IMG/VR virus record: IMGVR_UViG_3300045988_173642
Location: 32,001 to 96,000 of that record
Origin: a virus
Direction: 5' to 3' (one strand)
DNA length: 64,000 nt
Part shown: piece by piece, positions 11,118-59,066 of the stretch
Layout: every line of letters begins with the position of its first letter
Position numbering within the stretch: the first letter of the stretch is position 1
Made by a program: the position numbers and the translations under genes
Notes under the pieces: model-generated
Seen by the model: the letters and a program-made list of their open reading frames with translations, nothing else
Told to the model about the DNA's origin: nothing
Databases searched by the model: none

Positions 11118-11275
11118 GATGATTAATTTGGTTGCGTGTCGTTGAAAACAAACGAATGAAAGAATGGATATTTGAATAAACGATTAAACAAACAAACATT
11201 TGAACAGACAAACGTTTATACGAATGAATGTTTGAATAATTGTTGGTTTATATCATTTTTCAGCATCTTCGTGGC

Positions 11276-12891: not shown

Positions 12892-14040
12892 ATGAACATA
12901 AACATTACGCTTCCAGAAGCCTTAGACCGCGCTTCGGAACGACTACGAAAGAAGATGCTCCACTCGGTGGAACTATTGCAAAAGGCAGAGAAAATTGCGC
13001 TTAGCTATGATACTGAGCAAGGTTATTATTTAGCCTTCAGCGGCGGCAAGGATTCGCAGGCGCTTTACCACATAGCGCAATTAGCAGGCGTGAAGTTCCG
13101 GGGACACATGAACCTCACGAGCGTTGACCCTCCGGAGGTGATACGTTTCGTTAAGCTAAACTATCCAGAAGTAGAACTTATCAAGCCCAAGAAATCCATC
13201 TTTCAAATTGCGATTGAACGGCAGTACCTTCCGACGATGAGAGCTCGTTGGTGTTGCGAAGAATACAAAGAGAAGGCAGGATCGGGCAAAGTGACGCTTA
13301 TCGGCATCCGCAAAGCAGAGAGCGCACGGCGGGCGAAACGCAACGAGGTTGAAATCAGTAGTCGGAAATTCAGCGGCGACCTTGAAGCGCTGGAGGCCTA
13401 CAGGCAGGAACAACGCGCAAAACGCGCACGGCTACAGTCAAAGAAAAAGGGCGTTAACATCACAAATGCCGACAAAGAAACAACCCTTGGTTGCATCCAC
13501 GGCAAAGAGAGTTTGCTCATCTCGCCCATCATCCACTGGGCGGAACAAGATGTATGGGAATTTCTCAACGACGTGGTGAGCGTGTCACATTGCGCGCTAT
13601 ACGATGAAGGTTGGCACCGCATCGGCTGCATAGGTTGTCCGATGAGTTCGTACAAGCAGAAAACACTGGAAAACGAACGCTACCCACACGTGAAACGCGG
13701 TTGGCTTCGGGCCATCAAAAGAATCCGTGATGTGGGGGGACTTCAAAAGAGAATATATCTGGTGGAACATCCGTTCGAACTGGATGCCGATGCAAAACGT
13801 CGGCAGATTGCTCCGAACGCAGGCGGCTACATCAAGCATCCAGCCCCGGAACACAGGATGGGAAAAACGTTCGGGTTTTCATCTTGCTCATCTTCTGACC
13901 GCTTGAACGATGAGCAAGAAAACGAAATAGCGGAGAACATCTACGACTGGTGGATTTCGGGAAAATCATACAAACGATGGTATGCTGAGAAATTCCAACA
14001 GATGAAATTGGATTTTAAAGAGGAAACTAACAATGGCTAA
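12892..14040 (+). CDS. PAPS-reductase-family (PP-loop ATPase) protein
   Basis: PP-loop motif FSGGKDSQ and Cys pairs (WCCEEYK, CIGCP), as in phage PAPS reductase / DndC-like proteins. Confidence 0.75.
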   Translation: MNINITLPEALDRASERLRKKMLHSVELLQKAEKIALSYDTEQGYYLAFSGGKDSQALYHIAQLAGVKFRGHMNLTSVDPPEVIRFVKLNYPEVELIKPKKSIFQIAIERQYLPTMRARWCCEEYKEKAGSGKVTLIGIRKAESARRAKRNEVEISSRKFSGDLEALEAYRQEQRAKRARLQSKKKGVNITNADKETTLGCIHGKESLLISPIIHWAEQDVWEFLNDVVSVSHCALYDEGWHRIGCIGCPMSSYKQKTLENERYPHVKRGWLRAIKRIRDVGGLQKRIYLVEHPFELDADAKRRQIAPNAGGYIKHPAPEHRMGKTFGFSSCSSSDRLNDEQENEIAENIYDWWISGKSYKRWYAEKFQQMKLDFKEETNNG

Positions 14041-25195: not shown

Positions 25196-28100
25196 TCAAA
25201 ACGGCAAGTCCTCTTCTTTGATTTCCGGCAAGGTTGGCGCCGTTGTGGACGTTGCTGCAGGCATGACCACTCGCCTACCCTGCCTTCTCATCTTATTGTT
25301 TTCCCAACGTTCTTTTTCTTCGTCGGTGAGCGTAACGATTTTGCCATCATCATCGCGGTATGGCAGAGGGTCTGGCTGCTCGGCGTATTGCTTGGCAATA
25401 CGTTTCAAATCGCGATAGTTCTTCGGTATAACATCCTTCCCTGGACGATAAAAGAAGAATACGTGCTTAGAAGTTTGAAGATAGCGAATGAACTTCGGTT
25501 CGATGGTGTTGTCATTCTCCCACTCGCGGCCGGTGAAATACTCCTGCGTCACCCAGGCCTGCAATTTAAAGCACTTGCGCTGTTTGTCGCTCTCATTCTC
25601 AAAGAGCTGTTTAGGATTGCACGTGATCGACATATTCTCGCAATAGTCGTATATCTTCTTCTTGAACGTGGCTCGGCTGTATTCCTTCGACTTGCCTTCA
25701 GAGGCATCCGCCCAATCGCGCATAAACTCGTTGAACATATCGTCGGTACATATCGGCACTCCATAAACCTCATTGCGAGAAAAGAACCACTCGAAGTAGC
25801 GAACGATGCTCTCGGTGAGTTTCTGAACCATTTGACGGCGACGCACGTTGCCTTGCGGTGCGATGGCAAAAGTGTGGTAGCGCATCAGGAACTGAACGGC
25901 CAAGGCACAGAGATAGATGGTCTGATTGCGGTCGGTGTCGGTGAGCTTTTCGGGATTAGGGTCGAAATGCTTCATAAGTTCGGCCGGCGAACGTTCTGGC
26001 TGTCGCTTCTGCTGATTCTCTCGCGAAAAACGGTCAGAGAAACTGACCAAAGGGAAACGGCCGATAGTTGACGGATCATCGTCGCTCAGCGGACTATTAC
26101 TCGTTATGACATGAATGGGGGAATCTTCCATCTTCAATCCGACGGGGTCGCCAAACTTCTTCTCAACCTTGGTGCCTTGCGTCACCTTGTTATAAAAGTA
26201 TTTCATGGGAAAACTCTTTTGTTTGTCTTCCCAATGAACAACGCGATATTTCCCTGGATATACGATTAAATCCGTGAGGGCAAACTTGGCATCGGTTATC
26301 ACCATGAAGTCTTTCATGTCGACGGGCAACACATTAACAGCCGAGCCAACAACCGTGTTCACTAATACCGATTTGCCGGAACCGCCTGCCGCCTGTTTCT
26401 CGTCGGCAATATTGTCCTCCAAGAGGTAAGGCGCGACATTCTTCATACCTTCCCAAGAACGGAAGCACAAACGGCCGATACATGAGAGCATATTGGCGAA
26501 GTGAGCATTCATCACGGCCGTCTCGTCTTCGGTGAGCGGTTGTTTGTTGCGCTGCGCTTCTTTCTCCCGTTCCCAAAGTGTATTGGAAAAACCACGCACA
26601 ATGCGGAGAATCGGCCACAAGTCTTGCTCACGTTGCCCTTGCCAGTCAACGAACCAGCGATAAGTCTGTGCCCATTCCATGAGTTCGCCACGCAGTTTCT
26701 TTATCTCGTCGTAGGTGAATACGGAAGAGCCATCCTCGTTCTTCATGGCCTCTTTCTTGTTTATCGCTTCCAGGCGGTCGCGGTATTCCTGACGCTCGGT
26801 AATGACAAACGGAGTTTTAAACACACGCATCGTGAAATCATACGGCTTTCGTGCGAGTGAAGGAATGAAGAAACTGATGTCGTTGTATGACACCGGACGG
26901 ATGTTGTCTGGCGTAATCCTTAGCGCCACATTGCGGAAATAGAAATATTCCGTCTTGGCATTAAAGGCGTCAGCGAAGTTGATGACCATGCTCTGCAATC
27001 CGCCTGCCGACTTCTCCGTGAAAGTTTTGTCAACCATATTGGCGCAATCAGACATCAAGCGCTGCTCGGTGTCATTATGTCGCCAGCTCTGTTCAATATA
27101 TTCAAGCAACAAAATTTTGGCTGCCTGGATAATGCTCTTTGCATCAATATACTCAACGAAGCAACGGTCAAGGTGGATGTATTGTCCCACGAGGTCAGTG
27201 CTCTCAGTGTCAATCATGCGATAATATCCGTGCGCAGTCATGAAGAGCCAAAGGCGCGTTGGCGACACTTTGCAGGTTGGCGGTTTAGGCTTTCCGCTAC
27301 GAGGGTCACGGGGGTATTCAATTTCAAATGGCTCCGTGTTTCTCGCTCCGCGCAATCGGGAGTAGAGCGGCAAGCGCAAGTCGTGGTCAAACTGAAAGTT
27401 ATCTTCATCGGTCATATTGTATGACAAGAGATAGTCACGCACACTTCTCGGTGAACACCCAAAGAGCCATTTCCATCGCTGGTTATAACGCGAGCGGAAC
27501 TGCTCCGGCAACATGGCATAGTGAATGGCGCTGAATTTGGTAGCTATTGCACCGCAGTCGCGCTGCGAAGCGATGTCGTTGGGATAGAGGATGATGACAC
27601 GTTCGGCAAAACAATTCATCTTCTGATATTGCACGGCGCTGAAATCCAGTTTTTCTTGTTTCCATTCTCCCCGTTCGATGTACCAGAAGTTTCTTCGCCC
27701 GATGGAGAACGCCACGTGATACCAACAATAATCTGCAAAATGCTGGTCGCCATCCTGCTTATCAAGTCGGAGCGAACGCATGGCGTAATACACGCTCAAG
27801 GCATCTTCGGGGGTGCGGCAGAAAACGATGTTGCGAGCTTTGATTTCATTGGTCGGTATCTTCACGTCAATTCTCTTGAACGTGCCTTTCGGCTCTCCGT
27901 CCTTCGTTTCGTTTTCTTCCCATTCTTCACGGGTCTCGGTGTATTTCTCCTCCGGCTCTATCTGATTGATGGCGGCATGGACGGCGGTGTTGTCGCTCTT
28001 GCGGTGGTCCATCGCATAAACAAAAACGTTGTCGCCCATGAGCCATTTGCTCACCTTCCGCACGCTATGCTCCTCGGCGGTGGAGAACACAATCGGTTCG

Positions 28101-28870
28101 CTGCCCCCCATTGCAGGACGGAAGAAACATCCGTATGAGTTTTGCGGGCCAAATTCTTGAGAGGCGAAACAGACGAAGAGCGGATTCCACGGCGTGCCGT
28201 GGATGATTTCGCTGACATGCTGACCATTTCGGATAACGTCTGGCAGTGTGACGCTCAGCAGGGAATAGATGCGAAAGTCTTTGTTGAGCAAATCTGGTGT
28301 GAACGTCCGACCGAAACCGAAACGTGGAAGACCTTTTTCTAACGTCACCTCACATCCAAGCGCCGCCAGTTCTTGCGGAGAGAAATCCATTTTCGGCATA
28401 AACGAGAATGTCTCAATGGTCTGCTGCGCAACGGTGCGGTAATCCATGTTGCCGAATACTTCTGGGAATGCAGCTCGCGTTTCTTCCGTGTCGCCGTAGC
28501 ATTTCAACACCAATGCCTTGCAGATTCTTAGTAAACTTTGCCCGTGCATCAGAAGGTGATGGACGGCGGCATACAGTTCAATGGCACCATAACCTTTTTT
28601 CCCAGTCTTTGTACACATCCACTTCACGGCGCCATGTTGCGCCAGACTGTCACCTTCAACCCCCACTCCATCGTACAAACCGCCACGTTCATTATTATAT
28701 ATGATGAAATGTGGTGTACGCGCCGATCTGCCGTCTGCAGCAGCTTCGTCTTTCTCACAAAAGGGACAGAAACAGGCTGTCTGCCCTTCGACGCGCTGCT
28801 CGTCAGAAGGCCGCACCAATAATGCCAAGTCGATGTTGGCAAGCTGGTTGAGTATCGGGTGATATATCAT
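25196..28870 (-). CDS. primase-helicase fusion (zinc-finger primase-like N-terminus, D5/P4-type P-loop helicase C-terminal half)
   Basis: 1224 aa. CHC2-like motif CFCPFCEKDE...PHF near the N-terminus, Walker A AAGGSGKSVL in the C-terminal half, ends ...EIKEEDLPF. Confidence 0.7.
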   Translation of the reverse strand: MIYHPILNQLANIDLALLVRPSDEQRVEGQTACFCPFCEKDEAAADGRSARTPHFIIYNNERGGLYDGVGVEGDSLAQHGAVKWMCTKTGKKGYGAIELYAAVHHLLMHGQSLLRICKALVLKCYGDTEETRAAFPEVFGNMDYRTVAQQTIETFSFMPKMDFSPQELAALGCEVTLEKGLPRFGFGRTFTPDLLNKDFRIYSLLSVTLPDVIRNGQHVSEIIHGTPWNPLFVCFASQEFGPQNSYGCFFRPAMGGSEPIVFSTAEEHSVRKVSKWLMGDNVFVYAMDHRKSDNTAVHAAINQIEPEEKYTETREEWEENETKDGEPKGTFKRIDVKIPTNEIKARNIVFCRTPEDALSVYYAMRSLRLDKQDGDQHFADYCWYHVAFSIGRRNFWYIERGEWKQEKLDFSAVQYQKMNCFAERVIILYPNDIASQRDCGAIATKFSAIHYAMLPEQFRSRYNQRWKWLFGCSPRSVRDYLLSYNMTDEDNFQFDHDLRLPLYSRLRGARNTEPFEIEYPRDPRSGKPKPPTCKVSPTRLWLFMTAHGYYRMIDTESTDLVGQYIHLDRCFVEYIDAKSIIQAAKILLLEYIEQSWRHNDTEQRLMSDCANMVDKTFTEKSAGGLQSMVINFADAFNAKTEYFYFRNVALRITPDNIRPVSYNDISFFIPSLARKPYDFTMRVFKTPFVITERQEYRDRLEAINKKEAMKNEDGSSVFTYDEIKKLRGELMEWAQTYRWFVDWQGQREQDLWPILRIVRGFSNTLWEREKEAQRNKQPLTEDETAVMNAHFANMLSCIGRLCFRSWEGMKNVAPYLLEDNIADEKQAAGGSGKSVLVNTVVGSAVNVLPVDMKDFMVITDAKFALTDLIVYPGKYRVVHWEDKQKSFPMKYFYNKVTQGTKVEKKFGDPVGLKMEDSPIHVITSNSPLSDDDPSTIGRFPLVSFSDRFSRENQQKRQPERSPAELMKHFDPNPEKLTDTDRNQTIYLCALAVQFLMRYHTFAIAPQGNVRRRQMVQKLTESIVRYFEWFFSRNEVYGVPICTDDMFNEFMRDWADASEGKSKEYSRATFKKKIYDYCENMSITCNPKQLFENESDKQRKCFKLQAWVTQEYFTGREWENDNTIEPKFIRYLQTSKHVFFFYRPGKDVIPKNYRDLKRIAKQYAEQPDPLPYRDDDGKIVTLTDEEKERWENNKMRRQGRRVVMPAATSTTAPTLPEIKEEDLPF

Positions 28871-32191: not shown

Positions 32192-32788
32192 CTACTTTTT
32201 TATTTTCTTCTCAATAACCAAAACGAAACAAGCAACGACAACGAATAACGAGGCAGCCAATAATAGCATGCTTGTCAGCCGCATACCTCCGAAACGTGTT
32301 TCCGGCGTGTTCCGTTGTTTGTCTGCGGCAATACTATCGTTTGCCTGTCGATGATTCAGCGTTGCCTGGTTCATCTGCAGCGCCATGCTGTCTTCTAATG
32401 TGGACTGCGTTTGTGTGCGTGCATCCGTCGTTGAAGAATGCGTCTCGCTGCCCGTTTGTTGTTGATAATTACCGACGCGGTGTATAACGCGTTCCGTCAC
32501 TCTTATGTGCTGCCCGATACTGTCAGTATATTCTGTCACACGTTCTGTTATAATCTCTTCTTGCCTCGCACTTGCAGCGGAAGAACTCATAGCGGTTTTA
32601 TCAATAGAGACATCATGAGACAGACTGTCTCTTCCGTAGTTTTTCACACTTACTTCTTCCGCCTGCTCAATATGCAGACTGTCGTTACTGCTTCGTGTCA
32701 CCCGCTCCATGCTCTGTCTCGAAGAACTGCAAGCTGACATCAGAACGAGACACAAGCAAAACATTAAACTGTTTTTCTTCATTTTCAT
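32192..32788 (-). CDS. lipoprotein with C-terminal transmembrane anchor (start refined to MKMKKNSLMF)
   Basis: A TATCTTTG box (complement of 32807-32814) lies inside the longer ORF. Lipobox LMSAC, S/T/Q-rich body, hydrophobic tail LLLAASLFVVVACFVLVI. Confidence 0.55.
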   Translation of the reverse strand: MKMKKNSLMFCLCLVLMSACSSSRQSMERVTRSSNDSLHIEQAEEVSVKNYGRDSLSHDVSIDKTAMSSSAASARQEEIITERVTEYTDSIGQHIRVTERVIHRVGNYQQQTGSETHSSTTDARTQTQSTLEDSMALQMNQATLNHRQANDSIAADKQRNTPETRFGGMRLTSMLLLAASLFVVVACFVLVIEKKIKK

Positions 32789-32912
32789 TTTTAATGGTTG
32801 ATGGTGCAAAGATAGGTTTTTGAGTTTGGGCCGTCCGGACATAAAAAAGGCATCGCGCTGCACGTGGCGGCGCGATGCCTAATGAATTGGAAATTTCGAT
32901 TAGTTAGACTGA

Positions 32913-33515
32913 CTATTCTAATTGTACTGGAGGGCACGACGTGGCGACAGATTCAGAATTGGCCATGTCATTAAAGGTAATTAAAAGGGAGTATTCATCA
33001 ACGGAGTCACGGGAAAATATCAAATCTATTTCGCCAATAGGCGAAAACCAAGAAGAAGGTAAGAGCCTATTTAAGAAACCAAACGAAAAACCTTTTTCGT
33101 AGACATTAAATAAGATTTCGCTAAAATCTCTTTTCTTCGTCGGTATTTTATCTATCGTGTAAATGGACTCATATTCCTTCAAAAAGTCGTTTACAAACGA
33201 TTTACACTCCGAACCATTATAAATTTTCATCGTCAACATAACAGTGCATACCTTACGAGTTTTTCCGTTCCAACCCAAGAAAACATTGGCGTTATAACCT
33301 CTAAAATTCCCCATAAAGAACACACCATCTTCATAATATCGTTTCGATAAAGAATTGTCAATGAAGCCTTTTTTCTTCAATTTATCACAAAACGAATACG
33401 CATCCCCATCAATCGGAATACCCAGGAATGTGAGATGCGACTGCGACCGCGCAGACAAGCAAAGTATAACGGCCAAAAAGACCAACGTGATAATTTTTTT
33501 CATTGGTTTAAACAT
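32913..33515 (-). CDS. secreted protein, paralogue of 35661-36260 (likely start MKKIITL at 33503)
   Basis: Signal peptide followed by HLTFLGIPIDGDAYSFCDKLKKKGF, matching HMKFMGIPLTGHVDLFTQKLKAKGL in the paralogue. Confidence 0.55.
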   Translation of the reverse strand: MFKPMKKIITLVFLAVILCLSARSQSHLTFLGIPIDGDAYSFCDKLKKKGFIDNSLSKRYYEDGVFFMGNFRGYNANVFLGWNGKTRKVCTVMLTMKIYNGSECKSFVNDFLKEYESIYTIDKIPTKKRDFSEILFNVYEKGFSFGFLNRLLPSSWFSPIGEIDLIFSRDSVDEYSLLITFNDMANSESVATSCPPVQLE

Positions 33516-33524
33516 TAAGTGATT

Positions 33525-35084
33525 TCAAAATCCGCGTACCAGTACGCGAGCAGCGTTTTTGCCAATCAATTCGGCAAGCAAGTTCATCAAGTTCTCGTAA
33601 TCCGTCTTGTTCTTTGGGTCATCGCAAGCCGCATTAAAGGCATTCAACGTTTCCCGGTCGGCAAAACGGATAGACATGAAACCTGCGGCATTGGCACCAT
33701 AATGACGCGCCTGCAACAATAACGGCTTCAAGCTGCCTTCATACCTTGACAGTAAAATCTTCCATTCTTGGGCGTATTTGCCGGGGAAATCTTCGATTTT
33801 TTTCGTCTGTGCCGTTTTACTTGAAGCATCCAACAGACTGAACAAGTCAGGTTCTACGGACAAAACTGCTTTACGACTATGGTCTTTCAACCATTGTTCC
33901 AAGACATGGAAAACCAATCCTTCATGTGTTCCGCCCCATTGTCTGGGGCGTTCAACGGCCTTTGGAAGTCCGTTATAGGCAAAAGTCTTAAACTCACTCC
34001 AAAGAATTTCCGGAACAGAGACAACAAATGATTTGAGTTTTTCTTCGTCAAGGCTCGGATAAACGCCCATGATTTTTTCGCATACACGCTTAACCGAGGT
34101 GTTACGATGCAGGTTTAAATCACGTGCGACACCAAGCGGTGTACGCTTAATATGGAATCTGATCTTATCAGGATTGCCGCGTTTCGCTTTTCCCGTGTAA
34201 ACGGGTTCATATCCTTCGGGACATTCATCCGTAGACTCCAACATGATTTCGATCTTGTTTTCTTTACATAACCGAACCATATCATTTCTGGCTACGTTGA
34301 GCACTTGTGTGCGGAATCTTGCAAACTTCTGGTATTTATCCTTGGCTATGACGTCTGATTTCGGCATTCTCTCGAAAATACCTAAGAAATCCTTCAATTC
34401 AAAATAATCTATAACAGGGTGCATCTGACCTTTGCTGACATATTTCATCAACAACAGATAAAGGCGTGAAGTGAACACTGAATTACAGAACAAAGCAATA
34501 TGCTCAAGATGATTGAAATAACCATGACTCATGCCGAATATCGCCATTGCAGCTTCAACATTGATGGTCACTTCAACGAATCCATCACGCCTTAACACAT
34601 TCGATGATTTCCCTTCTTCGGTATCACCAGGGTATGTATTTCCCTCTTTAGATGAAACGCTTTGCGGAACGAAAACCCTGCTGAATATCGGCATATAATC
34701 ATCACCTTTCCTCAATCCTGTTTCCAAATCAAAACGAGGTAAATGAAAAGTAATATCTGTAATCTCCTTAATTTTCTCCACTAATTCATTATAATGGTTA
34801 TATACTCCCAATTCGGACAAACTCAAACGGATAGGTCCCATCTTCAGTAAATCTTCTTTAGATATGCCACCTTGCGGGTATTGATCATTCAAAAAACGCC
34901 GTTCGTCCAAATATTTAGTGAAATGGCTTTGCAATTTACCGCTTACATGCAACATAACATTTTGCTGGCACAACGAAAAACTCTTGCAAAATTTCGTATA
35001 AGATACAGGAGTAATTATCCAGTTATGATGCTCCAACGCAGACTTAACATCAATTTCTTCTTCTTTTTTATTCTTCTTAGCCAT
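33525..35084 (-). CDS. plasmid-type replication initiator (iteron-binding Rep candidate)
   Basis: 519-aa ORF starting 47 nt from a block of 22-bp iterons and upstream of the ParA module. Assigned by context; no catalytic motif identified. Confidence 0.55.
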   Translation of the reverse strand: MAKKNKKEEEIDVKSALEHHNWIITPVSYTKFCKSFSLCQQNVMLHVSGKLQSHFTKYLDERRFLNDQYPQGGISKEDLLKMGPIRLSLSELGVYNHYNELVEKIKEITDITFHLPRFDLETGLRKGDDYMPIFSRVFVPQSVSSKEGNTYPGDTEEGKSSNVLRRDGFVEVTINVEAAMAIFGMSHGYFNHLEHIALFCNSVFTSRLYLLLMKYVSKGQMHPVIDYFELKDFLGIFERMPKSDVIAKDKYQKFARFRTQVLNVARNDMVRLCKENKIEIMLESTDECPEGYEPVYTGKAKRGNPDKIRFHIKRTPLGVARDLNLHRNTSVKRVCEKIMGVYPSLDEEKLKSFVVSVPEILWSEFKTFAYNGLPKAVERPRQWGGTHEGLVFHVLEQWLKDHSRKAVLSVEPDLFSLLDASSKTAQTKKIEDFPGKYAQEWKILLSRYEGSLKPLLLQARHYGANAAGFMSIRFADRETLNAFNAACDDPKNKTDYENLMNLLAELIGKNAARVLVRGF

Positions 35085-35130
35085 GATTTCCTATTATTTT
35101 TCGTTTCAATATTACATGCTGCAAATTTTC

Positions 35131-35218
35131 CCTCCCTATTTATGTACCAACTCCTCCCTATTTATGTACCAACTCCTCCCTATTTATGTACCAACTCCTC
35201 CCTATTTATGTACCTCAT
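35131..35218. repeat. iterons, 4 direct copies of CCTCCCTATTTATGTACCAACT (4th partial)
   Basis: Counted directly: 35131, 35153, 35175 and 35197, with a 22-bp period. Confidence 0.9.
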
Positions 35219-35384
35219 TGCACATAACTTTCTGATTTCAAGCGCATTGTGACCCGCGTAAAATAATATAATATAAATAAGGAAAATCTCTTTTTTTATT
35301 AAAAAGGAAGAAGGAACCAATATTATATTATATTATATTACGCAATTTACAACGGGCTGAATATTAATATGTTAAGCTTAATGA

Positions 35385-35468
35385 GGTACATAAATAGGGA
35401 GGAGTTGGTACATAAATAGGGAGGAGTTGGTACATAAAAGAGGAGGAGTTGGTACATAAATAGGGAGG
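35385..35468. repeat. iterons, 4 copies in inverted orientation (GGTACATAAATAGGGAGGAGTT; 3rd degenerate, 4th partial)
   Basis: Copies at 35385, 35407, 35429 and 35451. Together with 35131-35218 they form an ~88-bp inverted repeat around a ~160-bp AT-rich spacer. Confidence 0.9.
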
Positions 35469-35530
35469 TCTATGCAAGGTAAACTATCTTAGTAGAAGTT
35501 TACCTCATTCGCCGATAGAAGGTAAACCAT

Positions 35531-35650
35531 CTTAGTAAGAGTTTACCTCAATCCTCCAACTTATTCCGTCTCAGAAACTCAATCACGGCACGCAAGGCAA
35601 AATCACGGCGGGGGATGCCGGTGCGGATTTTGAGGAAGATATTTGCCGGT
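35531..35650 (-). pseudogene. truncated duplicate of the 3' end of the RHH gene 36306-36773
   Basis: Minus-strand translation ...IFLKIRTGIPRRDFALRAVIEFLRRNKLED* compared with ...SFLKIRTGIPIRDLALQAVIEFLERNKLED*. No start codon; about 80 percent nt identity over ~115 bp. Confidence 0.65.
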
Positions 35651-35660
35651 CTACGAAAAA

Positions 35661-36260
35661 TCACAAATCGTCATAATTATTTTTTTCGTTTTTATTAAAA
35701 TTGGCGACATCACAATAGGAGAGACTGATGCGATAGTATTTTTCATGAATGCCATCTGGCAGGATAGTAGTCTGTATGATGAGCCCCATCAGATTCTTTT
35801 TTTCTTTGTCAAATATGCGAAATTGAATGCCATTGGCGTCGCCATCGCTATTTTTTGACAAACCAAGCACAGCGTCAGGATATTTCTCCTTTAATTGAGC
35901 CGCAATATCAACAAATTGCGATTTTACCGATTCCAATGTAGGGTACTCTATGTCGACTACCACTGAAAATACAGTTTTATCTTTTGAGTTAAACATTATC
36001 ATAAATTCAGCATCCTCCCCCATAAATACTCCTTTGTAATATTTCGTACCAGAAGGAGCTACTTTTGTTTTCGCAACATCGCAAGTAAGTCCTTTGGCTT
36101 TTAACTTCTGCGTAAACAAATCTACATGCCCGGTTAATGGAATACCCATGAATTTCATGTGTGCCTGTCCTTGCACCATCAGACAGAACAAAGACAGCAT
36201 TAAAGTAACTATGATTTTTTTCATTGTTGTTTTAAATTTTATGGTTATTAATATTTTCAA
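35661..36260 (-). CDS. secreted protein, paralogue of 32913-33515 (likely start MKKIIVTL at 36224)
   Basis: Signal peptide plus a shared N-terminal motif. The gene is flanked by the duplicated RHH 3' segment. Confidence 0.55.
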   Translation of the reverse strand: MKILITIKFKTTMKKIIVTLMLSLFCLMVQGQAHMKFMGIPLTGHVDLFTQKLKAKGLTCDVAKTKVAPSGTKYYKGVFMGEDAEFMIMFNSKDKTVFSVVVDIEYPTLESVKSQFVDIAAQLKEKYPDAVLGLSKNSDGDANGIQFRIFDKEKKNLMGLIIQTTILPDGIHEKYYRISLSYCDVANFNKNEKNNYDDL

Positions 36261-36305
36261 TAATATGGCAAATATGTCTGCCAGTTTGTATAGTAAGGGT
36301 TTACC

Positions 36306-36773
36306 TCAATCCTCCAACTTATTCCGCTCCAAGAACTCAATCACGGCCTGTAAAGCCAAGTCGCGGATGGGGATGCCCGTACGGATTTTTAGGAAAGAAA
36401 TTTGTCTGTAATATTTCATCGACACTTTAATACTGATGCCTGCTTCTGATTTCTGCGACTTGGTTGCCAATGTAGGCAAGGGAGTTGATTCGTTTTGTAC
36501 AGCTGCCATTTCTTCTTCTTTTGTTTCTTGATTTGTTTCCTGGTTTGTCTCTTGGTTTGTTCCCTGAACAACTGCTTCTGGTTCTATCACTTCACCCTGG
36601 GCTGATTCCGCTTCGGTTGCCTGATGCAATGCAGGAACGTCATCCTTCGTCGTTGATTGCACTTTATCGCCCGATTGTCCCAAGCAATTTGCATGATCCA
36701 TCGCGCCGTCAATTACCTGCGCACATGGGGTTTTGTCAATTTGGAAGTTATTATTACTTGCTTTTCGTGCCAT
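36306..36773 (-). CDS. ribbon-helix-helix centromere-binding protein candidate (ParG/ParB-like partner of ParA)
   Basis: 155 aa with a low-complexity acidic N-terminal part (NQETNQETNQET). The C-terminal ISIKVSMKYYRQISFLKIRTGIPIRDLALQAVIEFLERN is RHH-like. Lies directly downstream of parA. Confidence 0.5.
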   Translation of the reverse strand: MARKASNNNFQIDKTPCAQVIDGAMDHANCLGQSGDKVQSTTKDDVPALHQATEAESAQGEVIEPEAVVQGTNQETNQETNQETKEEEMAAVQNESTPLPTLATKSQKSEAGISIKVSMKYYRQISFLKIRTGIPIRDLALQAVIEFLERNKLED

Positions 36774-36806
36774 GTTGATTAAATGTTTTCGTGGTTATTA
36801 TTCCTA

Positions 36807-37679
36807 TTATTCTGGCATACTTTCCAGTAATTCGATGGTGAACTGCTTATAGTCCAATCCAACGCGACTATAAGGCGCATAGGTAAATATATCCTCATTT
36901 AACGCCTGCGCTTCCACCATCTTTGTATCACGGCGTGTATAAGAATCAAACATATAGTCGTTGAACTTGCCACCGAGGTATTGTTTAAACTGCTTCGTCG
37001 CATTCGTCTGGTCGTTGCTCATGACCATCAATAAGCCGCGAACCTCCAAGTAAGGGTTCAAATCTTCACGTGTCTCACTGACCGCCGCAATGATGTCGGC
37101 AATGCCCTTCGTTGCCAACATCTCCAGCTGCACGGGCAATACCACGCTCGAAGCGGCCGTTAAGGCATTAAACGTCAACAGAGACATGGCTGGCGGGCAG
37201 TCAATCAAAATGTAGTCAAAGGCATCCAACGCATGGGTAACGCCCTCTCCTGCCAGTTCGTTGCCTTTCATTTCCTTCAGCGGCCGGGAAAGGATTTTAC
37301 AAAGGGCTTTTCTGGGTACGGACATTTGATTCAAAAACGGGTCAATGCCAATCAGTTTTCCACTCGCTGGCGCAAGATAGATGCCTTCACGCATTTGGTA
37401 AACAGGTAACTGACCCTGCTGCACAATTGCATCATAAACCGTTGGTAAATCCGCACTCTGCATCTCGCTCCAGCCAAACAGGAAGGAGACACAAGCCTGC
37501 GGGTCAAGATCAATAATTAAAACACGTGGAAGACAGGATGACCCGTCGGCGTTCTTGCCAAAATATCCCTTGCCAAATCTTCTGAGGCCCGTTGCAAGGC
37601 TTTGCACCGTTGTCGTCTTGCCCACCCCACCCTTGTGGTTGACAAAGGCAAGCACTTCTTTTAATCGCTTAGTTTCCAT
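36807..37679 (-). CDS. parA: ParA-family partition ATPase
   Basis: Deviant Walker A VNHKGGVGKTTT, DLDPQ, and a later IDCPP motif. Confidence 0.85.
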   Translation of the reverse strand: METKRLKEVLAFVNHKGGVGKTTTVQSLATGLRRFGKGYFGKNADGSSCLPRVLIIDLDPQACVSFLFGWSEMQSADLPTVYDAIVQQGQLPVYQMREGIYLAPASGKLIGIDPFLNQMSVPRKALCKILSRPLKEMKGNELAGEGVTHALDAFDYILIDCPPAMSLLTFNALTAASSVVLPVQLEMLATKGIADIIAAVSETREDLNPYLEVRGLLMVMSNDQTNATKQFKQYLGGKFNDYMFDSYTRRDTKMVEAQALNEDIFTYAPYSRVGLDYKQFTIELLESMPE

Positions 37680-37689
37680 TTTTCGCTTA

Positions 37690-38010
37690 ATGTTAGTGTT
37701 CTTTTAAATGTTTGTTCATTGATTTGTTGAAACAAATAAACGAACAAATAAACAAATAAATGAACGAATGTTTGTTTAAACAATTCAACAAAAATATGAT
37801 TGAATAATTAAATAGCCGATTTACAGACCATTAATCATTATTGTTGTCTCATTTCGATTACAAATTTAAATATTATAATTCATTTGAGCAAATAAATTCA
37901 TGAATATTTGTTTGATTGTTTGTTTATTTAGTTGTATGTTTGTTGAAACAATTAAATAAATAAATAATTAAACAAATAAACAAACGAATAAATGAATGTT
38001 TGTTTGCTTG
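37690..38010. repeat. AT-rich AAAC(A/G)AA-type repeat region upstream of parA (candidate centromere/operator)
   Basis: Two ~85-bp degenerate direct repeats sharing TTTGTTGAAACAA (37723, 37938) and AAACAAATAAAC...AATAAATGAA..TGTTTGTTT. Palindrome TTGTTTAAACAA. Confidence 0.4.
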
Positions 38011-38016
38011 TTTAAA

Positions 38017-38565
38017 TCAATTGTCCCACTTATCGTTGATAGTGATGTAAACTGCACTGCTTTCCGCAATGCGTTCGGAGCGAATGGGCAAGATGCAGTA
38101 GTTTGTCTTCTGTCCTGCTTTCGTCACATTGCCATGAGGCACAAAGGTGTAATAGTCGCCTGTACCAAACTGAGTGCTGTCAAGTTGGTAATTCCGGTCT
38201 TCTGGCGCATCGTAGCAGAGGATGCGCTGTCGGCTGTTCCAATAATCAGACGGAAGAGACACGTTTTTCAGTAGCGCCACGACCTCTAATTTCCTCGGGA
38301 TTCTATAACGCGAGCCGTGCAACAACACGGAAGGGCTGGGCAAATCAAACAGGCGCACATCGGTGATTTCGTTTCGCGCAACATAGAACTTCGCCGTGTC
38401 GTTTTGCGCAATCATGATTTCGTCTGGCGTATCGCCAGGGTAGGTGCCGCCTCCTGGCTCCTCGGTTGGTGGTTCTTCTTCGTCATCGTTGAAAACAATA
38501 GGGTGATAGCAGGCAGACAACAAGCAGGCTGCGAAACAAGTAGTGAACAATGCGAAAATCTTCAT
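38017..38565 (-). CDS. lipoprotein (start refined to MKIFALFTT)
   Basis: Lipobox LLSAC after a hydrophobic signal, then an acidic Pro-rich linker. Confidence 0.55.
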   Translation of the reverse strand: MKIFALFTTCFAACLLSACYHPIVFNDDEEEPPTEEPGGGTYPGDTPDEIMIAQNDTAKFYVARNEITDVRLFDLPSPSVLLHGSRYRIPRKLEVVALLKNVSLPSDYWNSRQRILCYDAPEDRNYQLDSTQFGTGDYYTFVPHGNVTKAGQKTNYCILPIRSERIAESSAVYITINDKWDN

Positions 38566-38694
38566 GAGATGGAATTGTGGATTTAATGATGAAACGGACA
38601 GGGCGCCTGCAATCAGACGTAAACATTTAAAACGAAAAGCATCCGGCAAACGCATGAGCGTTAACTCACGCCTCGCCAGATGCTCTTGGTTGTT

Positions 38695-39648
38695 TTAGAT
38701 TTGAATTTCGTTGCCTTCGGCGCTCCAAGCGTCGTTCAACGTAATAGAAAGGCCCTGCTGATGATTGTAGAATGAGCCTGTAATGGTTGTCACCTTGTTG
38801 CGCTCCAGCTTCACGCCCGGCACTGTGATTGTGGAGAAGGGCGTGCCTTGTTTCCGATTGGTAGTGAAGGTGACATCGGTAGTGTAGCCTTCTTCTGGCA
38901 CAAGCAAAAAATAAGAAACAGTAGTTCCTTTCTTGCCTGCCAACGACGATACGTCTGAAATCCTCTGATTTTTCACCTTCCCGATGACGGAGAAGTCGGC
39001 AAAAGAAAACTGCCGGTATTCGTCTAAGTCAACATCGATGGTGGAGCAATCGGCTGGAAACTCATCGGTGCTGTTCACTTTAAGGCGTGCCACCAATCGG
39101 TCTAACACTATGCTGACGGCCTGACTTTGCCCAATGCCCACCGTCACCTCTTTCAGAGCGCCGAAACTATCTGAGGTCTTGTCGCTCGTCCAGCAAACTG
39201 GCACGGAAGCGGATGAAACAGGCGTCAGAATGTTGGGAGTTAACGCCCATGGTGATGCTGCTGCATCCAACAACGAGGGCGACACACTGGCCGTTGCCAC
39301 CACTTTCAAAACGTGATCGCCGTAATCCAACGTTAAATCGGGTTCGGCAAAATCGTCCGCCGTGCTTGTCTGGTGCAGCACTTGCAACAAGCGGCCCGAC
39401 GCTTTGTCGTAGTCGAAGATGTAGAGGTCGGTGAGTTCTCTGCCGTTGGCTGTCAGTACGGCGCGTGGCGCAATGCCTTGCGGCGTTCCCTTCGCCTGGC
39501 TTCCAGCCTTAAATCCGCAAACGAGTTTGATGTGTGCCTTGCCTGCAGGTGTTGTTTCGCCACCTGGTTCAAGGGGTGTGGCTTCATTGTCGCATGATGT
39601 GACCACACACATGGTGGCCATCATCGCCGAAAAAAGGATATTCTTCAT
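38695..39648 (-). CDS. fimbrillin-like (FimB/Mfa2-type) lipoprotein
   Basis: Lipobox VVTSC, ~300 aa, beta-rich, with an LDRLVARLKVN-type motif common in Bacteroidota fimbrial subunits. Family call is from memory only. Confidence 0.4.
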   Translation of the reverse strand: MKNILFSAMMATMCVVTSCDNEATPLEPGGETTPAGKAHIKLVCGFKAGSQAKGTPQGIAPRAVLTANGRELTDLYIFDYDKASGRLLQVLHQTSTADDFAEPDLTLDYGDHVLKVVATASVSPSLLDAAASPWALTPNILTPVSSASVPVCWTSDKTSDSFGALKEVTVGIGQSQAVSIVLDRLVARLKVNSTDEFPADCSTIDVDLDEYRQFSFADFSVIGKVKNQRISDVSSLAGKKGTTVSYFLLVPEEGYTTDVTFTTNRKQGTPFSTITVPGVKLERNKVTTITGSFYNHQQGLSITLNDAWSAEGNEIQI

Positions 39649-53373: not shown

Positions 53374-53595
53374 TGTAAAGGTACAAAAGGGCGAGAGAAT
53401 ACACCGGACATAGAGGCGCTGAAGATGGGCACGAAGGGCGTTTTTCTGATGATTCGTTTGATTATTTAATGATTTGTTTGTTTGTTGATTTATTCAAACG
53501 AATCAACAAACGAACAAACGTTTGTTTGAACAAATGAACGAAATAACAAGAGACTAAAACGGAGGGATTTGTTTGGTCGTCCCGTCTGTTTTCGC

Positions 53596-58611: not shown

Positions 58612-59066
58612 GCCTCTTCTATCTTGAAGGCCGGTTTGGCCAATGCCTTGCAGCGTTCGGCAAAGGCTGTCACTTGCTCCAGGTCGGTTGTGTCACCAAG
58701 CAATGCCTTGCGGTGAGCGCACAACTCTTCTGCATAAGAATATCGAGCGCCAATGAGATAAGCGGCCAAGGTATGATAATCTGAGATGCGGTACACGGCC
58801 ACAAGTTCTTTGATGAATGCCGCGTCAAGACTGTCAAATAAGCCCTGCTGATAAATGGTCTGCAGCAATGTCTGTGCCGTCATTCGTCCTTCATGCGAAA
58901 TGGCCAGTGTGGTGCAACGAACGCGCTGCTCTCCTGCATCATTCTTATAAGATGAAGGGGAGAGGTTGATGGTCAAGAACTCCGTGTTCTTGGAATAAGA
59001 GCGAACGATGTGGCGGGGATTTTCCGTCAAATCTTCGCATTGGCGAAGGGGAATTTTTTCTCTCAT
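58608..59066 (-). CDS. hypothetical protein (DGR-linked accessory ORF)
   Basis: 152-aa ORF with 4-nt ATGA overlaps with both the RT stop and the next ORF start. Confidence 0.5.
   Translation of the reverse strand: MREKIPLRQCEDLTENPRHIVRSYSKNTEFLTINLSPSSYKNDAGEQRVRCTTLAISHEGRMTAQTLLQTIYQQGLFDSLDAAFIKELVAVYRISDYHTLAAYLIGARYSYAEELCAHRKALLGDTTDLEQVTAFAERCKALAKPAFKIEEA

What the first reader, a model, noticed from the sequence alone, without database searches (positions are those of the whole stretch)
33525..38010. Plasmid-type maintenance block inside a phage genome: candidate phage-plasmid
Within 4.5 kb lie four elements typical of a low-copy plasmid. First, a 519-aa initiator-like ORF. Second, an iteron origin 47 nt from its start. 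Third, a ParA with the deviant Walker A KGGVGKT. Fourth, a downstream RHH-type partner, with an AT-rich repeat region upstream of parA. The same 64 kb carry TerL, tape measure, fibres and holin-like genes, and I see no integrase, excisionase or att-flanked junction. That is the architecture of P1/N15-type phage-plasmids. I believe these are far less documented in Bacteroidota than in Enterobacteria and Firmicutes.
Basis: partly seen in the sequence, partly recalled or inferred. Interest (0 to 1): 0.65.

Follow-up and report, generated by a model that had tools for sequence, protein, structure and literature searches.

The report
Plasmid-style maintenance module in Prevotella phage
A roughly 100-kb circular tailed phage of gut Prevotella carries a complete plasmid-type replication and partition cassette and no detectable integrase, so it most likely persists in its host as a low-copy plasmid, which is a known lifestyle but little documented in this bacterial group.

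Summary

- **Replication initiator:** the 519-aa ORF has a predicted fold matching the iteron-binding initiators pi (R6K) and RepE (F). It is about 30% identical to initiators on real Segatella/Prevotella plasmids.
- **Origin:** eight 22-bp iterons lie in two inverted sets of four around a 170-bp, 26% GC spacer, 46 nt upstream of rep.
- **Partition:** ParA is a small Walker-type ATPase (KGGVGKT). Its partner has a conserved C-terminal ribbon-helix-helix-like domain. Arrays of short repeats bracket a promoter-like site upstream of parA.

The window is identical to two independently assembled contigs. Both reduce to the same 99,866-bp circle with different breakpoints and no host flanks. No integrase, recombinase, transposase or protelomerase domain was found in the window or in the rest of the genome. 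The rest was partly read from 95-99% relatives.

The parA-parB-ori-rep order recurs on a Segatella copri plasmid and in 76 of 80 related viral contigs examined. Iterons co-vary with Rep. One close relative has the whole ori/Rep-N-terminus cassette swapped.

The phage-plasmid reading is well supported, but the lifestyle itself is inferred, not shown. This is a new family of a known kind.

The parts
33525..35084 (-). rep: a 519-aa replication initiator. Residues ~1-320 form WH1-WH2 winged-helix domains. A middle helical region and a conserved 90-aa C-terminal domain (residues 430-519) follow.
   Evidence: ORF. AF2 model with pLDDT 80. The top 30 Foldseek PDB hits are all iteron initiators: pi 2nra at E = 1e-6, RepE54 1rep/7rva, and 8aan. 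A profile of homologues hits pi at E = 6e-4. Sub-threshold Pfam Rep3_N and Rep3_C hits lie in the right order. It is 29-33% identical to annotated initiators on Segatella plasmids and 23% to the one on a Prevotella plasmid.
35131..35214 (-). rep-proximal iteron array: 4 x 22 bp. The core reads GGTACATAAATAGGGAGG in the rep sense.
   Evidence: All four copies are perfect. The 46 nt between the array and the ATG contain TTTG and TAATATTG promoter-like elements, read from the sequence.
35215..35384 (.). AT-rich spacer between the iteron arrays: candidate DNA-unwinding element.
   Evidence: 170 bp at 26% GC against 47.5% for the window. It contains (TAATA)n and (ATATT)n runs. No DnaA box at up to 1 mismatch was found in 34900-35700.
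35385..35468 (+). Distal iteron array: 4 x 22 bp, inverted relative to the proximal array.
   Evidence: Three copies are perfect and one has 3 mismatches.
35476..35553 (.). Two 35-nt repeats, each a GGTAAAC-N13-GTTTACC palindrome. The same element type is multiplied in the alternative origin of relative L098.
   Evidence: (family D11). Function not tested.
35533..35637 (-). Remnant of a parB 3' end (codes ...NIFLKIRTGIPRRDFALRAVIEFLRRNKLED*) with no start codon.
   Evidence: 83% identical to 36291-36395 (D4). Translation. In relative L029 parB abuts the origin directly, so this is a scar of the insertion of the lipoprotein-like gene.
35661..36260 (-). Lipoprotein-like cargo gene inserted between parB and ori. 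It is a paralogue of 32913-33515.
   Evidence: No family hit.
36306..36773 (-). parB: a 155-aa candidate centromere-binding protein. It has a conserved N-terminal MARK motif, a disordered Q/T/E-rich linker and a conserved C-terminal RHH-like domain (~110-155).
   Evidence: The alignment of 19 homologues shows invariant G112, I113, V117, M119, Y121, Y122 and the block RTGIPIRDLAL.AVIEF. The AF2 C-terminus has pLDDT 82-89 and two helices. All six weak Foldseek hits carry an RHH or RHH-like domain by my reading: YiiF, MatP, PutA, HicB and a TCP domain. No significant sequence hit.
36807..37679 (-). parA: a 290-aa Walker-type partition ATPase with KGGVGKT at residues 16-22 and no N-terminal DNA-binding extension.
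   Evidence: Pfam AAA_31 at 3.6e-33. PHROG 164 at 3.9e-38. 40% identical over its full length to the ParA of S. copri DSM 18205 plasmid unnamed2.
37703..38016 (.). Candidate centromere/operator. Arrays of YRTTTRTT-type units run in direct and inverted orientation on both sides of a Bacteroidota-type promoter-like site (TTTG at 37889-37892, TAAATTTG at 37861-37868, minus strand).
   Evidence: The same layout, with lineage-specific repeat units and a conserved central TAAATTTG, is seen upstream of parA in L029, L094, L097 and L098.

Best explanation
The block is the plasmid-prophage maintenance module of a circular, roughly 99.9-kb, integrase-less tailed phage. Relatives are binned mostly with Prevotella.

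**Replication (inferred mechanism).**
- Rep, a winged-helix initiator of the pi/RepE/RepA kind, binds the eight 22-bp iterons. It opens the AT-rich spacer between the two inverted arrays.
- Rep then recruits a helicase for theta-type replication.
- The proximal array next to the rep promoter, and pairing between arrays, would hold the copy number low. This follows the standard model for iteron plasmids.

**Partition (inferred mechanism).**
- ParB dimers bind the short-repeat arrays around the parAB promoter through a ribbon-helix-helix domain. This forms the partition complex and represses the operon.
- ParA, a small Walker ATPase, moves the copies apart on the nucleoid.

**Lifestyle.** The phage's own lytic functions are used when it leaves this state.

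**What is shown.**
- The sequence features themselves.
- The fold of Rep.
- Homology and synteny with a real Segatella plasmid.
- Family-wide conservation and Rep-iteron co-variation.
- Circular closure.
- Absence of detectable integrases.

**What is inferred.** DNA binding, copy control, partition activity and plasmid lysogeny.
For: **Rep and origin.**
- Rep fold and homology.
- Iteron geometry.
- The same two-inverted-array, 22-bp layout sits directly upstream of rep in relatives L029, L094, L095 and L097. Truncated L096 shows only two 22-bp copies.
- The iteron sequence changes with Rep divergence: GGTACATAAATAGGGAGG, then GGTACACAAAAAGGGAGG, then GGTAAACAAAAACGTAGG.

**Link to real plasmids.** S. 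copri DSM 18205 plasmid unnamed2 has ParA (40% identity), a small ORF, 22-bp iterons and Rep in the same order.

**Conservation across the family.**
- 395 IMG/VR stretches encode ParA relatives.
- Of the best 80 (72-99% identity, contigs mostly 50-106 kb), 76 have a Rep-family gene 0.8-2.4 kb downstream. The other four loci end before that point.
- 55 of the 80 have at least three tandem 22-bp repeats, nearly always just upstream of rep.

**Cassette swap.** A relative 87-92% identical on both flanks has ori plus Rep residues 1-429 replaced by a different type. That type is 28% identical, while the last 90 residues are 94% identical. This is what incompatibility-driven replicon exchange would produce.

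**Circularity.**
- The ends of scaffold_104 overlap by 48 nt inside the iterons, whereas contig k119_210733 spans that junction.
- 99,914 - 48 = 99,985 - 119 = 99,866 bp.

**No integrase.**

**Other support.**
- Two Cro/CI-type HTH proteins are encoded.
- The phage identity rests.
- Relatives are binned in Prevotella MAGs.
Against: - No experiment or read-level data show that the element is extrachromosomal inside cells, or that virions are made.
- Rep does not reach the Pfam or NCBIfam cut-offs.
- The RHH assignment of ParB rests on pattern and weak structural hits.
- No DnaA box was found at the origin.
- No addiction (toxin-antitoxin) module was detected in this genome.
- About 20 kb of this exact genome was not retrievable and was judged from 95-99% relatives. 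This genome has about 3.3 kb more there than the closest IMG/VR relative.
- Circular assembly is also what a circularly permuted, headful-packaged lytic phage would give.
- The repeat motif upstream of parA also occurs at two other intergenic sites. It may therefore belong to another regulator.
Confidence: 0.7

Rival explanations
1. The phage is not a stable plasmid prophage. Rep plus iterons is simply its main origin for productive replication, as with lambda O protein and its iterons. ParAB only helps the genome persist during a transient carrier or pseudolysogenic state.
For: - The module sits inside the long leftward replication-gene block: ligase, clamp, exonuclease and a 1224-aa unknown protein.
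- No second origin was identified.
- No toxin-antitoxin module was found.
- No integrase is needed for this lifestyle either.
Against: - A complete ParA, centromere-binding protein and repeat-array set is characteristic of low-copy replicons.
- The module is homologous and syntenic to that of a non-phage Segatella plasmid.
- Replicon-type swapping between near-identical phages fits plasmid incompatibility better than lytic replication.
- Cro/CI-type regulators are present.
- Relatives are binned with host genomes.
Confidence: 0.15
2. It is a large plasmid that carries a defective or domesticated phage region (tailocin- or transfer-agent-like), not an infectious phage.
For: - The TerL assignment is weak (E = 9e-4).
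- No portal or major capsid family was recognised by PHROGs.
- The genome carries much cargo: LysR, PAPS reductase, methylases and several lipoproteins.
Against: - A head maturation protease followed by a conserved 429-aa protein, a tape measure, a holin, a GH108 lysin and fibre-like proteins are all present.
- A DGR shows adenine-specific differences between template and the tail-gene variable repeat, which suggests ongoing receptor-binding diversification.
- Several hundred to over a thousand relatives, mostly on contigs of about 50-106 kb, keep the same layout.
- IMG/VR and GenBank list relatives as viruses.
Confidence: 0.08
3. It is an ordinary integrating prophage whose integrase and att sites lie outside the window.
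For: Only the incompleteness of the survey: about 20 kb of this exact genome was read from relatives.
Against: - Two assemblies close into the same circle without host DNA.
- Dozens of related contigs cluster around 90-106 kb.
- No recombinase family was found in any ORF scanned or in the precomputed annotations of relatives.
- The window has no tRNA.
Confidence: 0.03

Closest known systems
Plasmid prophage P1 (RepA/oriR iterons plus ParA-ParB-parS)
   Same: - A tailed phage of about 94-100 kb kept without integration.
- An iteron-binding initiator lies next to its origin, and a ParA/ParB/centromere operon lies close by.
- The genome is circular or circularly permuted.
   Different: - No sequence similarity to P1 or to any deposited phage.
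- From my own knowledge, P1 ParA is the large type with an N-terminal DNA-binding domain and P1 ParB is an HTH protein. Here ParA is small and the partner is RHH-like.
- From my own knowledge, P1 oriR has DnaA boxes, GATC sites and iterons on both sides of repA. Here two inverted arrays lie upstream of rep, with no DnaA box and no GATC in the spacer (read by eye).
- No Cre/lox-like recombinase and no Phd/Doc-like addiction module was found.
parA-orf99-iterons-rep module of Segatella copri DSM 18205 plasmid unnamed2 (NZ_CP085934) and related Segatella/Prevotella plasmids
   Same: - Closest homologues found: ParA 40% identical and Rep 29-33% identical over residues 7-320.
- The gene order is the same.
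- 22-bp iterons in both orientations lie directly upstream of rep and share the GGTAAA half-site.
   Different: - Those replicons carry metabolic genes and no phage genes.
- Their small middle ORF has no detectable similarity to this ParB.
- This Rep has an extra roughly 200-residue C-terminal part.
Small-ParA partition systems with ribbon-helix-helix partners (TP228 ParF/ParG, pSM19035 delta/omega, pB171 par2)
   Same: - A small Walker ParA without a DNA-binding extension.
- A small partner with a flexible N-terminus and a C-terminal RHH-like fold.
- Arrays of short direct and inverted repeats overlapping the operon promoter.
   Different: - No sequence-level match to these proteins.
- ParB here has an unusually long low-complexity linker.
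- The repeat unit (YRTTTRTT) is different.
- Binding has not been tested.
Iteron initiators pi (R6K), RepE (F), RepA (pPS10): the Rep_3 superfamily
   Same: The predicted WH1-WH2 fold has TM-scores of 0.56-0.68 relative to the targets. A profile hit falls on the pi WH2 region. The cognate direct repeats are 22 bp.
   Different: Sequence scores are below the Pfam cut-offs. The protein is twice as long, with a conserved extra C-terminal domain of unknown role.
Predicted episomal gut Bacteroidota phages: the integrase-less RepA branch of 'Quimbyviridae' (PMC8008677) and the crAssphage phage-plasmid claim (PMC10983915)
   Same: Gut Bacteroidota phages with no integrase and a plasmid-like initiator. 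The Quimby-like phages also carry DGRs, methylases and a tRNA ligase.
   Different: - As described in that paper, the Quimby branch has a RepA-like winged-helix protein next to a DnaB helicase. Its median genome is 75 kb, and no ParAB or iterons are reported.
- Whether this family belongs to it was not tested. No related record turned up in the GenBank phage set searched.

Membership tests
Phage-plasmid (operational definition of Pfeifer et al. 2021, PMC7969092) | Encodes phage virion, packaging and lysis functions | tested here: met
   Present: tape measure, head maturation protease, holin, GH108 lysin, fibre-like proteins and a DGR aimed at a tail gene. The TerL call is weak.
Phage-plasmid (operational definition of Pfeifer et al. 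2021, PMC7969092) | Encodes plasmid replication and/or partition functions | tested here: met
   Rep, iterons, ParA, ParB and repeat arrays are all present. The module is homologous to one on a Segatella plasmid.
Phage-plasmid (operational definition of Pfeifer et al. 2021, PMC7969092) | Not integrated: a complete replicon without host flanks and without an integrase | tested here: met
   Circular permutation of a 99,866-bp unit in two assemblies. No recombinase family was found. Caveat: about 20 kb was judged from relatives.
Phage-plasmid (operational definition of Pfeifer et al. 2021, PMC7969092) | Vertically inherited as a plasmid in lysogens and horizontally transmitted as virions | not testable with these tools
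   This needs lysogens, read-depth or Hi-C data, or cloning of the replicon.
Rep_3-type iteron initiators (pi, RepE, RepA) | Two tandem winged-helix domains (WH1-WH2) | tested here: met
   The top 30 Foldseek hits are all pi, RepE or Rep-iteron complexes, each with probability 0.96-1.00.
Rep_3-type iteron initiators (pi, RepE, RepA) | Sequence match above the curated Pfam Rep3_N/Rep3_C thresholds | tested here: not met
   Scores were 13.3 and 12.3 bits against cut-offs of 22.4 and 21.1. The S. copri HDE06 homologue does pass Rep3_N at 29.3 bits, and a few homologues carry precomputed PF01051/PF21205.
Rep_3-type iteron initiators (pi, RepE, RepA) | Cognate directly repeated 17-22-bp iterons next to an AT-rich region and the rep gene | tested here: met
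   Iterons co-vary with Rep in relatives.
Small Walker-type ParA partition systems with an RHH partner (type Ib in the usual nomenclature) | Deviant Walker A KGGxxK[ST] and no N-terminal DNA-binding domain | tested here: met
   KGGVGKT lies at residues 16-22 of a 290-aa protein.
Small Walker-type ParA partition systems with an RHH partner (type Ib in the usual nomenclature) | The partner protein has a ribbon-helix-helix DNA-binding domain | tested here: inconclusive
   A conserved strand-helix-turn-helix pattern and a confident two-helix C-terminus. The six Foldseek hits all carry an RHH or RHH-like domain by my reading, but at E = 6-9. No sequence hit.
Small Walker-type ParA partition systems with an RHH partner (type Ib in the usual nomenclature) | Centromere of short repeats upstream of parA, overlapping its promoter | tested here: met
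   22 of 28 motif hits in the window fall at 37709-38012, against 0.21 expected. Relatives share the layout. Binding was not tested.
N15-type linear phage-plasmids | Protelomerase and telomere ends | tested here: not met
   No such Pfam family appeared in any ORF scan. The genome assembles as a circle.
P1 group of phage-plasmids | Shared phage gene repertoire with P1 | tested here: not met
   No DNA or protein similarity to any record in the phage collection for the module, for Rep, or for the 429-aa head-region protein.

The most novel reading that the evidence does not exclude
The RHH-type ParB may be more than a partition protein. It may act as an omega-like global regulator of the prophage.
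- The same short-repeat arrays found around the parAB promoter also occur upstream of the tail-assembly/tape-measure operon (11175-11198) and near the DGR-targeted tail genes (53471-53520).
- Their positions are conserved in relatives.
- Plasmid partition and silencing of late genes would then be coupled through one protein.
- Separately, swapping of the ori/Rep cassette would define incompatibility groups. These would let related phage-plasmids share one Prevotella cell.
Probability: 0.15. Interest if true: 0.7.

Novelty: new member of a known kind. Interest (0 to 1): 0.55.

Why it matters
- **Gap in knowledge.** Prevotella/Segatella dominate many non-industrialised human guts, yet temperate phages and genetic tools for them appear scarce (from my own knowledge).
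- **Scale of the family.** This looks like a large family: 395 ParA-bearing stretches in IMG/VR, and over 1,200 clusters of one head-region protein. It appears to persist as plasmids rather than by integration. Lifestyle predictors that rely on integrases would then misclassify it.
- **Possible tool.** The compact ori-rep-parAB cassette, and its naturally occurring alternative Rep/iteron types, are ready-made candidates for stable, mutually compatible shuttle vectors for Segatella.
- **Evolutionary link.** Homology with non-phage Segatella plasmids gives a concrete case of replicon exchange between plasmids and phages in Bacteroidota.

Tried and rejected
- **Megablast of 33000-38700 against the phage and plasmid collections:** no match.
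- **tblastn of Rep against phages:** no match.
- **Pfam and PHROGs on Rep at default stringency:** nothing usable. The answer came from tblastn against plasmids, a profile search of PDB and structure prediction.
- **ParB against PDB sequences, alone and as a profile:** nothing.
- **ParB against the S. copri 99-aa ORF:** no alignment.
- **Sigma-70 promoter scan:** fewer sites than in shuffles. It is not suited to Bacteroidota and was dropped.
- **Other origin and integration signals:**
  - DnaA boxes: none at the origin.
  - tRNA genes as possible att sites: none in the window.
- **GC skew:** it follows transcription direction and says nothing about the origin.
- **DGR repeats:** the gapless repeat finder missed the template/variable repeat pair. 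blastn found it.
- **1224-aa and 666-aa proteins against PDB sequences:** nothing.
- **Retrieving the remaining 20 kb of the exact genome:** look-ups are limited to window proteins and search hits, so I used relatives instead.
- **The 203-kb contig carrying a relative:** considered as a possible integrated form. Its flanks around the query gene are phage genes, and its length is about twice the unit. I read it as a concatenated or chimeric assembly and did not examine it further.

Full report
**Observation**

The region holds a run of minus-strand genes:
- parA, 36807-37679, 290 aa
- a 155-aa ORF, 36306-36773
- a 199-aa lipoprotein-like ORF, 35661-36260
- a 576-nt non-coding stretch
- a 519-aa ORF, 33525-35084

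The non-coding stretch contains four perfect 22-bp repeats at 35131-35214 (core CCTCCCTATTTATGTACC). Four inverted copies lie at 35385-35468. Between them is a 170-bp spacer of 26% GC, in a window of 47.5% GC. The 18-nt core occurs nowhere else in the window at up to 3 mismatches.

Upstream of parA, 37680-38016 is 21% GC and is filled with short repeats in both orientations. A two-unit pattern, YRTTTRTTYRTTTRTT with one mismatch allowed, hits 28 times against 0.21 expected. Of these, 22 hits are at 37709-38012. I add the second inverted iteron array, the intervening lipoprotein-like gene, and a 105-nt remnant of a parB 3' end at 35533-35637.

**The initiator**

Rep has no family hit at normal thresholds. 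At lenient thresholds it shows Rep3_N (residues 74-213) and Rep3_C (248-268) in the right order. It also shows a RepM hit at E = 4e-4.

tblastn against plasmids finds four records, all Segatella or Prevotella. Over roughly residues 7-320, identity is 29-33% to the three Segatella records (E = 1e-32 to 7e-27) and 23% to the Prevotella record (E = 5e-9). The underlying genes are annotated as replication initiators. One of these homologues passes the Pfam Rep3_N cut-off.

A profile of 25 homologues hits the R6K pi protein in PDB at E = 6e-4, over the second winged-helix domain. An AlphaFold model built on that alignment has mean pLDDT 80. Its top 30 PDB matches are all iteron initiators bound to DNA: pi at E = 1e-6, RepE54, and the Rep-iteron-ssDNA complexes. 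TM-scores relative to the targets are mostly 0.56-0.68.

I therefore take the N-terminal 320 residues to be a WH1-WH2 iteron-binding initiator. Residues 330-519 are extra. The last 90 residues form a separate, well-predicted domain.

**The partition genes**

ParA matches AAA_31 (3.6e-33), CbiA, and the PHROG ParA family (3.9e-38). It carries KGGVGKT at residues 16-22, with no N-terminal extension.

The 155-aa partner has many homologues, and the longer contigs that carry them are of phage size, about 80-103 kb. They share three parts:
- an N-terminal MARK motif
- a variable Q/T/P/E-rich linker
- an almost invariant C-terminal block, GI(S/T)I.VPM.YY..I...K.RTGIPIRDLAL.AVIEF

The model is disordered up to residue 105. 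It is confident (pLDDT 82-89) for an extended segment plus two helices. Only six PDB matches appear, all weak (E = 6-9). All six have an RHH or RHH-like domain by my reading: YiiF, MatP, PutA, HicB and a TCP domain. The RHH assignment is therefore likely but not established.

Upstream of parA, the arrays lie on both sides of a site that fits the Bacteroides promoter consensus. That consensus is TTTG, about 20 nt, then TAnnTTTG, and I cite it from my own knowledge. In the window it is TTTG at 37889-37892 and TAAATTTG at 37861-37868 on the minus strand. Relatives keep this central site while the flanking repeat units differ by lineage.

**What the element is**

The window is identical, base for base, to every stretch retrieved (about 12-22 kb each) from two ENA contigs from different samples. 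These are k119_210733 (99,985 bp) and BRIT16-1 scaffold_104 (99,914 bp).
- scaffold_104 begins and ends inside the iterons, and its ends overlap by 48 nt.
- k119_210733 runs straight through that junction.
- Subtracting the 48-nt overlap from one, and a k-mer-sized 119 nt from the other, gives 99,866 bp in both cases.
- Mapping the k119 ends onto scaffold_104 places them exactly 119 nt apart. This is arithmetic. The k119 ends themselves could not be fetched.

The genome is therefore circular or circularly permuted, with no host flanks.

Phage functions are present:
- tape measure (9e-22)
- holin family
- head maturation protease (7e-21), followed by a conserved 429-aa protein
- GH108 lysin with a peptidoglycan-binding domain
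- fibre-like proteins
- a sliding clamp, NAD ligase, exonuclease, PriCT_2 primase-like protein, dUTPase, ThyX and RtcB

Relatives are listed in IMG/VR and in UniProt as Siphoviridae sp.. No deposited phage genome is similar.

**Integrase search**

Every sizeable ORF of the window was scanned against Pfam. So were 28 ORFs covering the 36 kb outside it. That set came partly from scaffold_104 and partly from an IMG/VR relative about 95% identical in DNA (97-99% in the proteins compared).
- No integrase, resolvase, recombinase, transposase or telomere resolvase family appeared.
- The precomputed annotations of more distant relatives across the same region show none either.
- The same holds for a near-identical contig covering the variable stretch. 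There the extra DNA encodes a cytosine methylase and small ORFs.

About 20 kb of this exact genome remains unread. This is the main gap.

**Comparative evidence that the module is functional**

1. S. copri DSM 18205 plasmid unnamed2 is a 59-kb circular replicon full of metabolic genes. It has ParA (40% identical), a 99-aa ORF, about eight 22-bp iterons with inverted copies, and Rep, in the same order.
2. In four phage relatives with Rep 55-64% identical (L029, L094, L095, L097), two inverted arrays of three to five 22-bp repeats sit directly upstream of rep. In truncated L096 (Rep 40% identical) only two copies are visible. The repeat sequence changes with Rep. The left half GGTA(C/A)A is kept, and the right half changes from GGGAGG to CGTAGG.
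3. A ParA alignment finds 395 stretches in IMG/VR. The 80 best are 72-99% identical and mostly lie on 50-106-kb contigs.
   - 76 of them have a Rep-family gene 0.8-2.4 kb downstream. The other four loci end too early to tell.
   - At least five Rep types are represented.
   - 55 have at least three tandem 22-bp repeats, nearly always just before rep.
   - At least 26 of 53 contigs found through the head-region protein, at 52-99% identity, are in that ParA list. This is a lower bound.
4. Contig k141_68991 (97,672 bp) is 87-92% identical to the window on both sides. However, window 35541-33796, which is the origin plus Rep residues 1-429, is replaced by a different origin and Rep N-terminus. These are 28% identical, while the last 90 residues stay 94% identical. 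Each origin retains a few copies of the other type's repeats.

Exchange of the specificity-determining cassette between near-identical genomes is what selection against plasmid incompatibility would produce.

In relative L029, parB abuts the origin directly. The lipoprotein-like gene and the parB remnant in the window therefore record a later insertion.

**Host**

Relatives of Rep occur in metagenome-assembled genomes labelled Prevotella (three) and Paludibacteraceae (one). One of them is on a 94.5-kb contig. The source samples include Fijian and Hadza gut metagenomes. The nearest plasmid homologues are in Segatella and Prevotella.

**Mechanism**

- Rep binds the eight iterons and opens the AT-rich spacer for theta replication.
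- Copy number is limited by iteron pairing and by Rep occupancy of the array next to its promoter.
- ParB binds the arrays around the parAB promoter, and ParA separates the copies.
- These steps follow the established models for iteron plasmids and for small-ParA/RHH systems, cited from my own knowledge. Here they are inferred.
- A separate set of phage replication genes suggests a distinct lytic mode, as in P1, but no second origin was identified.

**Comparison with known systems and novelty**

Functionally this parallels the P1 plasmid prophage. It is not a member of the P1 or N15 groups:
- it shares no genes with them
- the partition type differs
- no telomere resolvase is present

The closest relatives of the module are Segatella plasmids.

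In the literature held here, phage-plasmids are described as widespread but poorly detectable in Bacteroides-type hosts (PMC7969092). crAssphage is claimed to be one (PMC10983915). An integrase-less branch of 'Quimbyviridae' with a RepA-like protein was predicted to be episomal (PMC8008677). I found no paper describing this family or its parAB-iteron-rep module.

I rate it a new member of a known kind. It is of moderate to good interest because of the size of the family, the host, and the practical value of the replicon.

Noticed in passing
window 60281-60407 and 61179-61305; RT gene 59063-60538 (-): A diversity-generating retroelement. A 127-nt template repeat lies just inside the called 5' end of the RT ORF. 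A variable repeat lies at the 3' end of the >2232-aa tail gene, which ends at 61164. The two are 90% identical. All 13 differences are at T on the plus strand, that is, at A on the coding strand.
   Followed up: partly
window 11175-11198 and 53471-53520: The same YRTTTRTT-type repeat arrays as upstream of parA occur at two other intergenic sites. One is upstream of the 198-aa/175-aa/tape-measure operon and the other is near the fibre genes. Both positions are conserved in relatives L032-L035 and L022-L025. They could be extra ParB sites or sites for another regulator.
   Followed up: partly
window 33525-33796 (Rep residues 430-519): The last 90 residues of Rep form a separate predicted domain. 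It stays 94% identical in a relative whose origin and Rep N-terminus are of a different type, and 60-67% identical in a third Rep type. Its partner, possibly a helicase or a phage replisome protein, is unknown. A weak structural hit to the DciA helicase loader (E about 0.9) is only a hint.
   Followed up: no
window 35476-35553; L098 5429-5951: GGTAAAC-N13-GTTTACC palindromic units occur twice beside the window's origin. They are multiplied (at least seven copies) in the alternative origin of relative k141_68991, which in turn keeps two or three copies of the window-type iteron. The two origin types look like successive replacements.
   Followed up: partly
window 32192-33515, 35661-36260, 38017-39648: Five ORFs with signal-peptide/lipobox-like N-termini surround the maintenance module. 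Two of them (32913-33515 and 35661-36260) are paralogues. They may be lysogenic-conversion or exclusion genes.
   Followed up: no
window 25196-28870 (-): A 1224-aa protein lies between the exonuclease and the sliding clamp. It has no Pfam or PDB sequence match and only a PHROG of unknown function. It may be a divergent polymerase or helicase of the lytic replisome.
   Followed up: partly
window 2616-3521 (+), 12892-14040 (+): Cargo-like genes in a phage genome: a full-length LysR-type regulator and a PAPS-reductase-family protein.
   Followed up: no
L103 (ENA ERZ27286933 k141_76120, 203,260 bp): A relative sits on a contig about twice the unit genome length. Gene content downstream of the shared block differs from that of sister contigs. 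It may be a concatemer or a chimera of two strains. Its ends were not examined.
   Followed up: no
L024/L025 (relatives), region equivalent to window ~51-52 kb: Some relatives carry a HicA toxin gene next to the HTH regulator genes, where this genome has other small ORFs. This is a possible addiction module that varies between strains.
   Followed up: no
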